From assembly GCA_964016885.1 (NCBI GenBank), contig OZ024740.1, forward strand, positions 125,674,001-125,738,000: a stretch of 64,000 nt of DNA, given 5' to 3'. The notes beneath the pieces are model-generated. The model was not told the origin of the DNA. It was given only the letters and a program-made list of their open reading frames with translations, and made no database searches. Positions 1-18,904 of the stretch are shown in pieces (within the stretch, counting starts at the first letter, position 1; the number at the start of each line of letters is the position of its first letter). The DNA comes from Eledone cirrhosa (taxonomy: Eukaryota). A program made the translations under genes and the position numbers.

Positions 1-700
1 TATATAGCATAAGATGTACTGAAGGACAATGTGGAGATAAAAATATAGTGTACATATGTGAGACAGCTCGTAGTTTAGGGGAACGGATAAATGAACACTG
101 GCGAGGCCTTCAAGATAGTAAATAATCATCTGGCCTCTACCAACATGGTAAAATAGAACATAATGGTAAATTAGAGAACATAGAAATAAAAATAGAATCT
201 ACACACAGAAAAGACGCAATGGTTAGACAAATCACAGAGGCAATAAACATAAATGAATTACAACCAAAATTAAATAGAAAACATAAGTGGAACAGCAACA
301 TCACAACTTACAATTAAGGACAAGATGAAAACACACACGCACATAGAACAAACAACCAACCAGTAACATGTAAATAAACAAATAAATAAACGAATATAAA
401 CACACACAGACACTCGGATGTAACACATGCGCAAACTAAGCACACAACACACACACAAAAACAAGATGGCGTAGGACAGAACAAAGGAGAGGCACAAAAA
501 AAACAAAGAAAAGAATCCCCAGTCACTGAAGAGGTCACAGAATGTGTGACGAAAGAACTTTGACAATATATAAACAACCATCTGGTTGTGGAAGCAACCA
601 ACCAACCGGAAATTTATTAATTTATTATAATAAATTGAAGTGAAAGCAACTGGTGCGTGTGATTCTTATTGGAAACATGACCCGCCCAAAGTATAGCAAT
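1..700 (+). mobile_element. 3' end of a decayed Penelope-like element (GIY-YIG endonuclease remnant + 3' pLTR)
   Basis: Frame from nt 3 reads YSIRCTEGQCGDKNIVYICETARSLGERINEHW...*...RQITEAI...PKLNRK.KWN, a GIY-YIG pattern with one stop. It is homologous to the EN at 8700-9000. The terminus TGACCCGCCCAAAGTAT resembles TGACCCTCCCAAGTAT at ~11651-11666. Confidence 0.85.
522..564 (+). ncRNA. Minimal type I hammerhead ribozyme in PLE pLTR
   Basis: GTCA-CTGAAGA-G-GTCACA(gaatg)TGTGAC-GAAA-GAAC-TT-TGAC: intact core, 6-bp stem II, stem I GTCA/TGAC, very short stem III. Confidence 0.65.
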
Positions 701-1715
701 ATATATAAATATATATATATATATGTATATATATATATATATTTATATATATATATATATATATTTATATATATATATATATATATATATTTATATTTAT
801 ATTTATATATATATATTTATATTTATATATATATATATATATTTGTATTTATATTTATTTATATATATATATATATATATATATTTATATTTACATATAT
901 ATTTATATATATATATATTTATTTATTTATATATATATATATATATTTATATTTATATATATATTTATATATATATATATTTATATATTTATATTTATAT
1001 ATATATATATATTTATATATTTATATTTATATATATATATATATTTATATATTTATATTTATATTTATTTATATATATATATATTTATATATATATATTT
1101 AAATATATATATATATATTTATATATATATATATATTTATATATATATTTATATATATATTTATATATATATATATATTTATATATATATATATATTTAT
1201 ATATATATATATATTTATATATATATATATATTTATATATATATATATATATATATATATATATATGTTTATATTTATATTTATATATATATATATATTT
1301 ATATATATATATATATATTTATATATATATATATATATATATATTTATATATATATATATTTAAATATATTTATATATATATATTTAAATATATATATAC
1401 ATATTTATATATATATATATTTATATTTATATATATATATATTTATATTTATATATTTATATTTATATATATATATATTTATATTTATATATATATATTT
1501 ATATTTATATTTATATATATTTATATTTATATATATATATTTATATTTATATATATTTATATATATATATATATATTTATATATATATATATATATATTT
1601 ATATATATATATATATATATTTATATATATATATATATATATATATTTATATATATATATTTATATATATATATTTATATATAGACATATATTTATATAT
1701 ATATATATATATTTA
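700..1715. repeat. (TA)n/(TTTA) degenerate microsatellite
   Basis: Direct inspection. Similar tracts lie at 1930-2130, 3075-3410, 4609-5581, 6975-7290, 7390-7555, 7820-8070, 11860-12027 and 16475-16705. Confidence 0.98.
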
Positions 1716-2130
1716 TTAGAAAGTGAGGTTTTTTTTACAAATTGAAAAATAACCGAGTTGTCCTACACGAGTGAAAGTATAAAGAAAAAGAGATGAAATC
1801 GAAAATGCAACTGGAGTTTTATGTTTTTTAAAAATATATATATTTATTTGGTTCCTTTACCGGTTTAGCAGTTCTTCTGCTTTTCAAAAGTAGAGTTGAG
1901 ATGGAGCGTCTGTAGTTTTTCTCACATCATATATATATATATGTGTATATATATATTTATATATATATATATTTATATATTTATATATATATATATTTAT
2001 ATAATATATTTATATATATATATTTATATATATTTATATATATACATATATATTTATATATATATATATATATATATATATATATATATATATATATATA
2101 TATTTATATATACATATATATATTTATATA

Positions 2131-3078
2131 TTGGTATAATTTCACCCAAACTTTAGGAGTCCTATAATGAAACGAGACGTCCGTCTGGGAAGAGATATAT
2201 TAGATATGTCTCATTTGAAATAATACAGCCAATTTTCCACGCAATACTTTTAGTTAGCACCCCGAACACATAATTGGGAATATAATCACTTATTTCCTAA
2301 TGTTTGTTGAGTGAGTTGAAATTTGGCCGGAGTATCGCTAAAAAGCTTTCTCCGATATTGTATTTATTTACTTACTCTTGGTGCAGCAGATTTGAAAAAA
2401 ATTCCCGGTATAAGGTTAGCATTCCTTTGTTTATTTTTTATATATGAATATTGATTGTTCCTTATATCTCATTCTGTTATTTTGCCCGAGAAAATATCTG
2501 TGTGTGTCATCAAATGTTGTACACACATAGACATTTTTTCAATTTCCAATTGAGTTCTTAGCACGTGGCCTGAATTCCTTTCAGAGTTCATTGTCAAGCG
2601 CATGTATTGTTTTTTTTTGGCGGTAATTCACTGCCTCAATTTTTTAATCAGTTCGAGCACTTCTTTCAGAACTGCTGGACTGGCTACCTGACAGATACCT
2701 CAGGCACAGAAAGTGATTATCGCTAAATGCTGATGTTGGTTAGATTATCAATATTAGTATTATTGGGGCACCCACTGACGAATTATAGGAGCCCACTTGA
2801 ATATATATCTATTGATGGTATACAAGCTCCTACATAAATTGGTATAATTTCACCCAAATTGTAGGAGTCCTATAATGAAACGAGACGTCCGTCTGGGAAG
2901 AGATATATTAGATATGTCTCATTTGAAATAATACAGCCAATTTTCCACGCAATACTTTTAGTTAGTACCTCGAACACATAATTGCGAATATAATCAATTA
3001 TTTCCTAATGTTTGTTGAGTGAGTTGGAATTTGGCCGGCGTATCGCTAAAAAGCTTTCTCCGATATTGTATTTATTTA
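2131..3078 (+). mobile_element. Non-autonomous PLE-like/retrozyme element: 709-bp period, ~238-bp terminal direct repeats, flanked by (TA)n
   Basis: 2131-2368 is repeated at 2840-3078 with a few substitutions. No ORF. It contains an HHR at 2771-2897. Confidence 0.8.
2771..2897 (+). ncRNA. Type I hammerhead ribozyme with long branched stem II
   Basis: CCCA-CTGACGA-ATTATAGGA[~77 nt: hairpins CTTG..CAAG and CTCCTACA..TGTAGGAG]TCCTATAAT-GAAA-CG(AGACGTC)CG-TC^TGGG. Confidence 0.8.
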
Positions 3079-16182: not shown

Positions 16183-16224
16183 ATTGGCAATATTATATGT
16201 CAGCTCAACGATATGGAGCAGTTA

Positions 16225-16472
16225 ATAGTATTAGTTATACTATTTATGGTTATGTAAACACAAAACCTTAAGCAGTTGTAAGTATTTTACACACACCCTA
16301 AATAGTGGTAGGCAGTAATGTATTACTACCTTATTACCAGTAAGTTAAGTAGCTCAATGTAAAAACATCAGATGATTTACAGAGCAGTTATATGAAATAT
16401 AAGAATCAAAGAACTGTTCAAAACATTATTGTGCTTACAGCTGTTTCCTCCAAACCGAGGTTTGGATTCTTC
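16225..16472 (-). repeat. 5' pseudo-LTR, beginning inside the hammerhead core
   Basis: Direct repeat of 12026-12273. On the minus strand it starts at GAAGAATCCAAACC. Confidence 0.95.
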
Positions 16473-18904
16473 ATTTATATTTCATATATTTCATATATTT
16501 ATATATATACATTTATATATATATATATTTATATATATTTATATATATATATTTTTATATATATATTTACATATATTTATATATATATATTTATATATAT
16601 ATATTTATATATATTTATATAGATATATATATTTATATAGATATATATATTTATATATATTTATATAGATATATATATTTATATATATTTATATATATAT
16701 ATATAAGAATTGGCGCTCTGAAATAGCGATATATATATGAATGTATATATAGTGTATTTTGCAATACACTATATGCTTAAAAGCATTTCGATGACCTGTC
16801 AGCTTTATCTCCCCCGTTTGCTGAAAATTAAAGTAAGTTAGACTGTCACTACTCTAAAACAATAGCATAAGGAATTCTAAGTGCTTTTAATTAAGCATAC
16901 AGTGTATTGCAAAATACACTATATATAATCCACACAATTACACAATCAGTATATCACACTGCTATATATATTTTTTCTGTTTAGTGTGTAGTGTGTGTTG
17001 CCATTTCTTTTGTTTTCATTATTTCTATTGTTATTATTGCTATTTACAGTGTTATCATTATCATTATTACTACTATTATTATCTTGTCTGTTTGTTAGTG
17101 AAATGGTATCTTTTAGCAAATGATAAAAGTTTAATAACAATAGTTTTAAATTGCTATATTCTTTGTCTTGAAACTTTGTTAATATAACAGAACAGAGTCT
17201 GCAAGATTATGAGATTCCATTATCAGGAATAGATGTTTTCCTCCTCTAATCTACACATTTAATTTATTACTTTAATAATGAGATGTCGCCAACACACTGA
17301 ATTGACAGACCATCTCATGTCACTGCAATATCTGGAATGTTCCAGCAAGTCTGTCAGTGGTTCTTTCCAGTTTCTCTAGAGGCCCTCATTGAAGAAGGCA
17401 TATAATCAATATCAGTCAGTTCTAAGACACTGGCGTAATTGTTTAGCCACACAAGAAGCTGTCACGAGAAAGAGAGGCTCACAATGAGAAACTAATATAT
17501 CTACAAAGCAGACACATGAATATTGTATAGCTAACAAGAGACAGATTTCAAGTCACTGAGAACAAATGATTTCCTTAGAAAACAAAAGGCAAGTTGGTAA
17601 CTCTAAATGGGAGAAGGTAGAATAATATTAACATTATTTATTATTGTCCAAAATGTTATTATAATAATTATTACAGTTGTAATTGTTGTTCTTATTTATT
17701 TATTTAATCATTTATTTTATTTTGTTGTATACTGCAATTTGTGAGGAATAGCATTTTGGTTATAGATATCTTATGTACCAATCAGTGGTTCCCCATATTC
17801 CTGATGATGAGAGTGTTTATCTAACTTAGTGTAGGATAAAAATAAAATAAAATTGTTTAAACTGTCTCACTGTTGTTTACATACTTTGCTAATATACACT
17901 GATAGAAGACACACATGAACACAAACACACGCACTTATTTCTATTATGTATATATATATATTTGTTGAATCACAATGAAACATGAAAGAATAGTAAACAT
18001 AAACACAGGAATGGACACATATGCATAATATATACTCTCTCTCTCTCTCTCTCTCTCTCTCTCTCTCTCTCTCTCTATATATATATATATATATATATAT
18101 ATATATATATATATATATCTATATACAAAAAGTTATGAAACGAAAGGAGCTGTGTGGTTACTAACTTTTTTGCATGTTTCTTTCACCTGTGTCTTCCCAC
18201 GACCTGTACACTTTTTTCTCCTATTCCTTTTCTATTTTCCCCCTTTCCCCTTTCTTCCTCTCGCCTCATCTCCCCTCCCCCCTGTTCTTCTTCCTTTCCC
18301 TCTCTTTCCTTTTCTCTCTCCTTTTTTCTCTACTTTTTTTCTTTCTTTTTCTCTCCTTTTCCACCTGGCCTTTTGATTAATAAAAAGCCCCGGGCGCACC
18401 CGAACTACACCGATGTCCTGTAATTCAGCGCCGAAACATCAGTTTGTGAAACATTTACAGCTGATGATGGAAACTCCTTTCTTCCTTTCTTCTCCTGTTC
18501 CATCCTAACCACCATCCTAAACCGTATATATATATATATATATATATATATATATATATATACCCTATATATATAAACTTAATAATAAAGCCAGCCAAAT
18601 ATGGATCCATATAACTCCAGCTGGTCCATTACTCACTCAAGGAGACAAGATTTGAGTGTGAGAACACACAAAACTATGCCTCAGAGTGCACACAAAATGT
18701 TATTTGTAATGGAGTCGACTGCACTTGGGCAGTGGTAAATTAGATACATAAAAGTATTGGACTTAGAAGTGTTGAGCATATTTTTTGATTTGGGAATCAA
18801 TAGAATTGATTATCATTTGCCTCAAAGGCAGGAAATTGCTGAAATAAATTAATAAATGGACTACATAAGATCTGTCATGTTCTGATATCATTATTGTTAC
18901 AGCT

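What the first reader, a model, noticed from the sequence alone, without database searches (positions are those of the whole stretch)
1..17000. (TA)n-targeted nest of PLEs and ribozyme-bearing modules
Seen: most non-microsatellite islands in the first 17 kb are a PLE, a pLTR fragment or a non-coding repeat, and they carry HHR motifs (522, 1854, 2771, 3590/4384, 5850/6266/6717, 7598, 8338/11425, 11760, 12233) from at least eight sequence families. Each island is separated by TA tracts. A second cluster lies at 49.9-59.4 kb. Known: many PLEs prefer microsatellite targets. Inference: an ecosystem of autonomous PLEs and ribozyme-carrying parasites that repeatedly insert into, and perhaps expand, (TA)n.
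Basis: partly seen in the sequence, partly recalled or inferred. Interest (0 to 1): 0.75.

Follow-up and report, generated by a model that had tools for sequence, protein, structure and literature searches.

The report
Penelope elements piled into TA array
One long TA-repeat stretch in an animal genome has likely been split again and again by jumping genes of the known Penelope type and by two small non-coding hitch-hikers that they likely move, all carrying predicted self-cutting RNA motifs; the pattern holds genome-wide and is mostly known biology, though the strict two-ended footprint is a testable clue to how these elements insert.

Summary
All 13 listed sites belong to hammerhead-bearing repeat families; 6 pass a type I descriptor and 7 carry lesions. 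Seven of nine families are ends of coding Penelope-like elements: four Hydra-type (one intact, young, 832 aa) and three Neptune/Nematis-type. Only two (420- and 708-bp tandem units) are non-coding retrozymes. In copies elsewhere, 213 of 219 3' ends join (TA)n at fixed positions (SINE control 4 of 29). In 560 kb sampled blind, 26 of 35 hammerhead clusters lie within 300 bp of TA (background 21%); about 250,000 motifs genome-wide. Two-armed insertions pair a long with a short end in 80 of 81 cases. The tracts of the 27-kb nest share one strand-polarised variant, so it is likely one ancestral array, not a mis-assembly (no long reads available). Flank variants continue across insertions (13 of 15) and do not lengthen with age: expansion by the elements is not supported. 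TA targeting, ribozymes and tails are published for these clades, and this scan noted the same system on other DNA of this genome. New members of known kinds, with a useful mechanistic footprint.

The parts
1..697 (+). Family A: 3' end (GIY-YIG tail, 3' UTR, pLTR) of a broken Neptune/Nematis-type PLE that starts about 890 bp upstream of the window; HHR core at 526; stops at the family's short end
   Evidence: CX4CxxC and CCHH in the upstream frame, with stops
699..1716 (.). Largest piece of the (TA)n array with the TATTTA variant, T-rich on the + strand
1720..1928 (-). Family B: 5'-truncated 3' end of a Neptune/Nematis-type PLE; HHR with TTGAAAA core (1881-1887), G12>T in this copy
   Evidence: (collinear with a GIY-YIG frame in L170, L111, L299)
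2132..3068 (+). Family C: 1.3 units of a 708-bp non-coding tandem element (retrozyme-like); HHR core at 2775 with about 95-nt stem II; single-armed in all sampled copies
3411..4532 (.). Family D: two-armed (inverted) 3' ends of a second Hydra-type PLE; long end at 3411, short end at 4532; HHR with TTGAAAA core and long stem II (4389+; the left copy is damaged)
   Evidence: 18 of 25 loci have a same-strand upstream P0001 hit
4564..4607 (-). 44-bp terminal tail of a tenth, abundant HHR family (other copy near 39.4-39.6 kb)
4608..5582 (.). Array piece with a derived TATGTTTA variant
5584..6975 (.). Family E: 420-bp non-coding tandem retrozyme, two-armed (about 2 units on -, 1.4 on +); HHR cores at 5885-, 6301-, 6722+ with ACTAGT palindrome
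7294..7385 (-). Tail-only piece of an F-type element (segment between short and long end)
7557..7814 (.). Family F: short two-armed insertion, HHR core at 7654-; a sister subfamily (about 89% identical over the HHR region) is collinear with a Hydra-type ORF through a 1.6-kb 3' UTR
8077..11668 (-). Family G: broken Neptune/Nematis-type PLE (RT and GIY-YIG with stops and frameshifts), with inverted pLTR arm 11073-11668; HHR cores 8376- and 11429+, both damaged
11690..11860 (+). Family H: 5'-truncated 3' end of a third Hydra-type PLE; HHR core at 11765
   Evidence: L256, L263
12026..16490 (-). Family I: young, intact Hydra PLE, 4.2-kb unit with 248-bp identical direct repeats (12026-12273, 16225-16472), 1.45-kb 3' UTR, HHR with CCGAAGA core at 12275, and a tiny stuttered inverted arm at 16473-16490
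13723..16221 (-). Open frame of 832 codons (P0001): RWR, DKT, YRDD RT core, CxCX5C linker, C-terminal GIY-YIG with CxxC and CxH
16476..16705 (.). Last piece of the variant TA array; ordinary host DNA follows
49921..59370 (.). Second, looser cluster: palindromic HHR pairs at 49921-50239 and 54423-54713, E copies at 53.6-54.9 and 58.7-59.4 kb, a 532-bp tandem HHR unit at 56397-57638

Best explanation
The region is a nest of insertions from nine hammerhead-bearing repeat families, seven of them ends of coding Penelope-like elements and two non-coding tandem units, likely formed by repeated cutting of one pre-existing long (TA)n array by Penelope endonucleases, which likely also move the non-coding units. 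SHOWN: every family's 3' end joins (TA)n at one or two fixed positions 46-273 nt past the predicted ribozyme cut; inverted two-armed copies pair one long with one short end; the TA pieces share one strand-polarised variant. INFERRED mechanism: the PLE protein (probably a dimer) cuts both strands in (TA)n. Each freed 3' end primes reverse transcription at its own internal AU-ending site on the RNA, one at the long site and one at the short site. The two cDNAs grow towards each other, truncate and are joined, which gives the mirror-image insertions. Because the start sites lie downstream of the ribozyme cut, the template must be uncleaved multimeric RNA or a ligated circle. Each insertion leaves TA on both sides, so a long array keeps being hit and is cut into pieces. 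The retrozyme E carries the same footprint, with a 61-nt spacing like the Neptune/Nematis-type families (60-64 nt) and unlike the Hydra families (88-165 nt), so a Neptune/Nematis-type enzyme is its likely mover (weak, few families). The array's length is likely due to ordinary microsatellite slippage, not to the elements.
For: Fixed TA-joined ends: 213 of 219 scored copies in nine families (2 without anchor and 4 internal tandem junctions set aside; window copies excluded) vs 4 of 29 for a SINE. Blind sample of 56 x 10 kb: 48 hits vs 4 in reversed and 3-6 in shuffled controls; 26 of 35 clusters within 300 bp of TA vs 21% of positions (p 3e-11); 39 of 48 have (TA)5 within 400 nt downstream vs 25% at random and 43% within the same blocks. 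Long+short pairing in 80 of 81 two-armed insertions, 60 of 61 without F, whose query favoured it. End distances. Coding links. One array: 10 of the 12 other tracts >=100 bp between -10 kb and 16.7 kb match the 699-1716 variant at cosine >=0.75 on the same strand and none in mirror, vs 1 of 15 background blocks at >=0.8. Flanks continue on the same strand in 13 of 15 insertions. E and C monomers fold as circles at z -8.0 and -7.2, with no frame over 61 aa. Literature: Hydra PLEs insert in (TA)n and carry HHRs (PMC8557442, section 11); a Poseidon protein cuts and extends both strands from two internal start sites that bound the tail (PMC11167929, passages).
Against: No RNA, cleavage or enzyme data here. 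Only 6 of 13 window motifs are intact. In vitro the Poseidon enzyme showed no difference of start site between strands and started at a site not homologous to the cut DNA, whereas strict long+short pairing and AT-ending junctions are seen here. Family C never shows an inverted arm (0 of 24) and H rarely (1 of 24), so one model does not cover all families. Genome searches return only the 40 best matches per query, which favours young, complete copies. Two long tracts in the nest do not share the variant. C and E share no 3' sequence with a coding family that I could find, so their partner is not identified.
Confidence: 0.8

Rival explanations
1. The elements themselves lengthen (TA)n, by telomerase-like stuttering of the PLE reverse transcriptase at the target, so nests grow their own target.
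For: Tracts next to these families are longer than others (median 47 vs 27 bp, p 8e-5). A stuttered copy of family I's short-end sequence lies at 16473-16490 and in L065. PLE RTs are sister to telomerase (PMC8557442 abstract).
Against: Variants continue on the same strand across insertions in 13 of 15 cases rather than mirror. Median flank length is 33-58 bp whether families are 92% or 100% identical (the misplaced D-short anchor row dropped). Summed flanks (92-102 bp) are close to the length-weighted median of other tracts (88 bp), as expected if longer tracts are simply hit more often.
Confidence: 0.12
2. The region is a mis-assembly that joins unrelated loci through TA repeats.
For: Very long low-complexity tracts. 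No read or contig bridged a junction, so there is no direct support for the order.
Against: Tracts share one locus-specific variant on one strand over 27 kb, while unrelated blocks match in only 8 of 105 pairs. Every island has its family's exact ends. Similar, smaller nests occur in blind blocks.
Confidence: 0.05
3. C and E are not moved in trans by PLE proteins; they are old pLTR-derived satellites amplified locally, or moved by another retroelement.
For: They occur as tandem arrays, no shared 3' sequence with a coding family was found, and C lacks the two-armed footprint.
Against: Copies are dispersed over many chromosomes at 97-99% identity, with fixed TA-joined 3' ends and variable 5' truncation. 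E shows the long+short footprint in 10 of 10 two-armed copies.
Confidence: 0.15

Closest known systems
Hydra clade of Penelope-like elements (Craig et al. 2021, PMC8557442; abstract, passages and section 11 read, supplements not read)
   Same: Single ORF with C-terminal GIY-YIG, DKT, CxCX5C linker, CxxC and CxH, no CCHH, HHR in the pLTR, insertion in (TA)n, tandem and inverted copies; molluscs are among the hosts named.
   Different: Unit of 4.2 kb with a 1.45-kb 3' UTR (described as generally under 3 kb); RWR for RWK; tails of 88-165 nt (30-40 bp described); HHR cores CCGAAGA or TTGAAAA in two of four families; a very young burst (40 of 40 best hits 100% identical).
Neptune/Nematis PLE clades (as defined in PMC8557442, passages)
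   Same: CX4CxxC linker, CCHH GIY-YIG, minimal HHR, microsatellite targets (families A, B, G).
   Different: DKS instead of DKG in G; tail about 60 nt. Neptune versus Nematis was not resolved, because no tree with reference sequences was built.
Animal non-LTR retrozymes (Cervera and de la Pena 2020, PMC7229834, passages; Li et al. 2026, 10.64898/2026.07.22.740005, parts 1-3 of 5)
   Same: Non-coding tandem units with one type I HHR each, GC under 50%, strongly self-paired monomer, co-existing with PLEs (C, E).
   Different: Strict (TA)n targeting with fixed ends and the PLE two-armed footprint; 'microsatellite' does not occur in PMC7229834. C is 708 bp, with a 95-nt stem II. Expression and cleavage were not tested here.
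Poseidon PAc in vitro mechanism (Frangieh et al. 2024, PMC11167929, passages) and the one-sided pLTR tail (Arkhipova et al. 2013, PMC3846280, passages)
   Same: Both strands cut and extended; two internal start sites that bound the tail; tail on one of two inverted pLTRs.
   Different: Here the pairing is near-absolute (80 of 81) across two clades and a retrozyme, the ends fall at AT-ending sites matching the target, and the tails are longer.

Membership tests
Hydra PLE (family I, P0001) | Single ORF, RT then C-terminal GIY-YIG, no N-terminal EN | tested here: met
   motifs read from the translation; look-alike clusters at 0.96-0.98 with HTH_animal, GIY-YIG, RVT_1. Pfam-A itself gave no RT or GIY-YIG hit and PDB sequences none.
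Hydra PLE (family I, P0001) | RWK and DKT motifs | tested here: met
   RVRWR (K>R) and HADKTNN; definition
Hydra PLE (family I, P0001) | CxCX5C linker; CxxC and CxH around E and N; no CCHH | tested here: met
   CNCRANRTC, CNLCILE, LN..CQH
Hydra PLE (family I, P0001) | HHR in pLTR and insertion in (TA)n | tested here: met
   core in 28 of 30 copies, as CCGAAGA; 24 of 24 genomic 3' junctions in TA
Hydra PLE (family I, P0001) | Placement in the Hydra clade on an RT tree | not tested
Neptune/Nematis PLE (A, B, G) | CX2-5CxxC linker and CCHH in the GIY-YIG domain | tested here: met
   (G and A complete; last H of B not seen in the one copy read)
Neptune/Nematis PLE (A, B, G) | Neptune versus Nematis by phylogeny | not tested
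   no tree built
Naiad PLE | N-terminal EN and no canonical HHR | tested here: not met
   EN is C-terminal and an HHR is present
Non-LTR retrozyme (C, E) | Short tandem unit with a type I HHR in each unit, no ORF, low GC | tested here: met
   spacing 420 and 707-709; GC 0.38 and 0.35; longest frame 61 and 52 aa
Non-LTR retrozyme (C, E) | Highly self-paired monomer | tested here: met
   circular fold z -8.0 and -7.2 against 25 dinucleotide shuffles; 70% and 64% paired
Non-LTR retrozyme (C, E) | Self-cleavage and circular RNA in tissue | not testable with these tools
   needs RNA and bench work
Non-circularly permuted (SGC/CSG/GCS) hammerheads | Block order other than CGS | tested here: inconclusive
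   strict scan gave 0 hits in the window, but also 0 type I hits, so it is insensitive to minimal stem III; the nine families read as type I by eye and by descriptor

The most novel reading that the evidence does not exclude
Hydra and Neptune-type Penelope proteins insert by asymmetric, double-ended target-primed reverse transcription. The two ends of one double-strand cut in (TA)n each prime at a different fixed site of one RNA, and for retrozymes that RNA is a ribozyme-made circle copied round more than once. This would give direct genomic proof that PLE enzymes move animal retrozymes, and the spacing between the two ends (about 60 nt vs 88-165 nt) would name the enzyme clade. The host carries about 250,000 hammerheads, more than the axolotl's 120,000.
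Probability: 0.45. Interest if true: 0.7.

Novelty: new member of a known kind. Interest (0 to 1): 0.45.

Why it matters
How Penelope-like elements insert, what their ribozymes do, and which enzyme moves animal retrozymes are open questions. This genome offers a young intact Hydra element, several other families and two retrozymes with base-exact start sites, so each question can be tested in vitro. The variant-polarity test shows that long (TA)n arrays act as sinks that get cut up by insertions, rather than being written by them. It also warns annotators that most short 'ribozyme modules' here are truncated PLE ends.

Tried and rejected
Rfam, Pfam-A and PDB sequence search gave nothing useful. 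Naiad identity for element I was rejected (EN is C-terminal). Expansion of TA by the elements was tested three ways and not supported. F first looked non-coding (0 of 24 same-strand hits within 1.5 kb) until longer inverted arms showed the ORF. Hairpins in the tails were not general: only family I folds better than shuffles (z -4.5; others 0 to -1.4). A scan for permuted hammerheads found none but is insensitive. Sequencing runs: no RNA holder listed, and only short reads or contigs were held. The tool skipped the repeat at 11661-11689, so no junction was bridged; this gives no verdict on the assembly. No structure prediction, homologue search or tree was run. Literature searches. 'Hammerhead ribozyme' plus 'octopus' gave only PMC8557442 as relevant, and an octopus repeat annotation has no occurrence of 'ribozyme' (PMC13282606, passages). 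The supplements of PMC8557442, not read, may list such families.
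Full report
Setting. The window lies at C1:125,674,001-125,738,000 of a 3.0-Gb assembly. The host looks like a cephalopod; this is a recalled impression from a SINE and the genome size, and was not tested.

Observation. TA tracts cover 21% of the first 17 kb, and named islands fill 12,979 of 16,705 bases. Rfam reports no hammerhead, so I wrote a type I descriptor that allows minimal stem III, long stem II and the TTGANAA and CCGANGA cores. Six of the 13 listed sites pass. 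The other seven are damaged copies of families whose other members keep the core. The reversed window gives no hit. The nest continues about 10 kb upstream. The second cluster at 49.9-59.4 kb is real but looser.

What the islands are. [quoted passage not shown] These are the features given for the Hydra clade, which is reported to carry hammerheads and to insert in (TA)n (PMC8557442 section 11). It is very young: the 40 best pLTR matches are all 100% identical, from 1,034 candidates, and ORF-bearing copies are 99-100% identical. D, H and F are 3' ends of three other Hydra-type families. D has a same-strand upstream hit to P0001 in 18 of 25 loci. H links in L256 (E 2e-11) and L263 (E 3e-4). F links through a sister subfamily, about 89% identical over the ribozyme region, with a 1.6-kb UTR. 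A, G and B are Neptune/Nematis-type, with CX4CxxC and CCHH. C (708 bp) and E (420 bp) are non-coding tandem units with one hammerhead per unit, GC 35-38%, and monomers that fold as circles at z -7.2 and -8.0. They meet the sequence definition of animal non-LTR retrozymes (PMC7229834 passages; 10.64898/2026.07.22.740005 parts 1-3 of 5).

Targeting. For each family I took the 25-30 best genomic matches. Excluding the window's own copies, the 3' end joins (TA)n at a family-fixed position in 213 of 219 scored copies: A 23/24, B 24/24, C 24/24, D 24/24, E 27/29, F 23/24, G 22/24, H 22/22, I 24/24. Two H copies lacked the anchor and four I hits were internal tandem junctions; a few loci overlap one array. 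A SINE control gives 4 of 29. Best-hit sets favour complete copies, so I also fetched 56 blocks of 10 kb at round coordinates, weighted to the large chromosomes. They hold 48 descriptor hits, against 4 in reversed and 3-6 in shuffled controls. Of 35 clusters, 26 lie within 300 bp of a TA tract against 21% of positions (p 3e-11), and 39 of 48 hits have (TA)5 within 400 nt downstream, against 25% at random and 43% within the same blocks. Extrapolation gives about 246,000 motifs (block bootstrap 155,000-348,000). This is a lower bound, since the descriptor passes only 6 of 13 window sites and misses an abundant tenth family. The window's first 10 kb is at the top of the sampled range, not outside it for hits.

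Footprint. Eight families have two fixed 3' ends. Distances from the predicted cut to the short and long end are I 46/211, D 59/187, H 53/141, F 51/143, A 140/200, B 79/143, G 209/269 (third end at 254) and E 212/273; C has one end at 178. All ends fall after AT or GT, matching the target. In 81 two-armed insertions bounded by TA on both sides, 80 pair a long with a short end and one is long-long; without F, whose query favoured this form, it is 60 of 61. Inverted arms within 1.5 kb occur in 8-19 of 24-29 copies of I, D, B, E, A and G, but in 0 of 24 for C and 1 of 24 for H. I had seen the repeated end at 12190. Earlier scan notes on other DNA of this genome describe the same two-ended footprint and prompted the systematic count; they are leads, not support. 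A tail on one of two inverted pLTRs is published (PMC3846280 passages; PMC8557442 passages), and a Poseidon protein cuts and extends both strands from two internal start sites that bound that tail (PMC11167929 passages). That study saw no strand difference in start site and no homology to the target, which differs from the pattern here. Minimal and palindromic-stem-III hammerheads in pLTRs are published (PMC4209133 passages).

One array, not expansion, and unlikely a mis-assembly. Long TA tracts carry locus-specific interruptions that are strand-polarised. In 15 two-armed insertions with long variant flanks, 13 have the same variant on the same strand on both sides and 2 fit the mirror better; left and right lengths correlate (rho 0.36). 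Repeats written by the enzyme outward from each end would be mirror images, so the arrays pre-date the insertions (inference). Flank medians are 33-58 bp for families from 92% to 100% identity (one misplaced anchor dropped). Summed flanks (92-102 bp) are close to the length-weighted median of tracts not adjacent to these families (88 bp). Adjacent tracts are longer than others (47 vs 27 bp), as expected if longer targets are hit more often. In the nest, 10 of the 12 other tracts of 100 bp or more between -10 kb and 16.7 kb match the variant of 699-1716 on the same strand (cosine 0.75-0.98) and none in mirror; two do not match. Only 1 of 15 background blocks and 8 of 105 between-block pairs reach 0.8. 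Stitching unrelated loci would not give this. Direct proof needs long reads, which were not held. The unit junction of element I stands in three independent runs.

Mechanism. Shown: targets, fixed ends, pairing, coding links, shared variant. Inferred: double-strand cutting in (TA)n, priming at two internal RNA sites by the two ends, an uncleaved or circular template, mobilisation of E and C in trans, and a Neptune-type mover for E from its 61-nt spacing. Ribozyme activity is predicted only.

Verdict. 'Parasites' applies to two of nine families, and 'expand' is not supported. The parts are new members of known kinds (Hydra and Neptune/Nematis PLEs, non-LTR retrozymes). I found no paper on hammerheads in this host group, though unread supplements of PMC8557442 may list such families. 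The added value is the near-absolute long+short footprint shared by coding elements and a retrozyme, the variant-polarity test, and a young intact element for bench work. Interest 0.45.

Noticed in passing
window 12030-16220 laid on runs X1, X2, X5, X19: Element I is held at about 99% identity by runs labelled as several different organisms. This could be close relatives, horizontal spread or mixed samples, and depth in X1 and X5 is low. Depth in X2 falls about 30-fold or more from the 3' to the 5' end, as expected for 5' truncation.
   Followed up: partly
window 2132-3068 (family C): C never shows an inverted arm (0 of 24) and has a single fixed end, unlike the two-ended families; it may use another enzyme or only one start site.
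   Followed up: partly
window 16473-16490; L065: A tiny inverted arm of family I repeats the short-end sequence twice, which looks like stuttering at the start of reverse transcription.
   Followed up: no
window 7294-7385: A tail-only F piece is truncated just at the short-end site and lies collinear with the F arm across a 170-bp TA tract.
   Followed up: no
window 1881-1887, 4389, 54561-54575, 12275: Non-standard cores are fixed in whole families: TTGAAAA (a compensated 3-8 pair) in B, D and the 54.5-kb family, CCGAAGA in I and a relative in L132; several families have a stem II of 70-95 nt.
   Followed up: partly
window 4564-4607 and 39403-39560: A tenth, abundant short HHR family with a full stem III, usually two-armed, seen in many flanks; missed by the descriptor.
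   Followed up: partly
window 56397-57638: 532-bp tandem unit (99% identical) with an HHR in each unit, a further retrozyme candidate; relatives in L031 and L145.
   Followed up: no
window 12273-13723: The 1.45-kb 3' UTR of element I has a GC-rich part near 13200-13450, a possible promoter for the next unit in tandem.
   Followed up: no
L337-L340 (C2:338.32-338.46 Mb): Four near-identical F-containing loci spaced about 44 kb apart suggest a large tandem segmental repeat.
   Followed up: no
window 18907-19099, 23131-23543, 53150-53357: Copies of an abundant SINE-like repeat; used as control, TA-joined in only 4 of 29 copies.
   Followed up: partly
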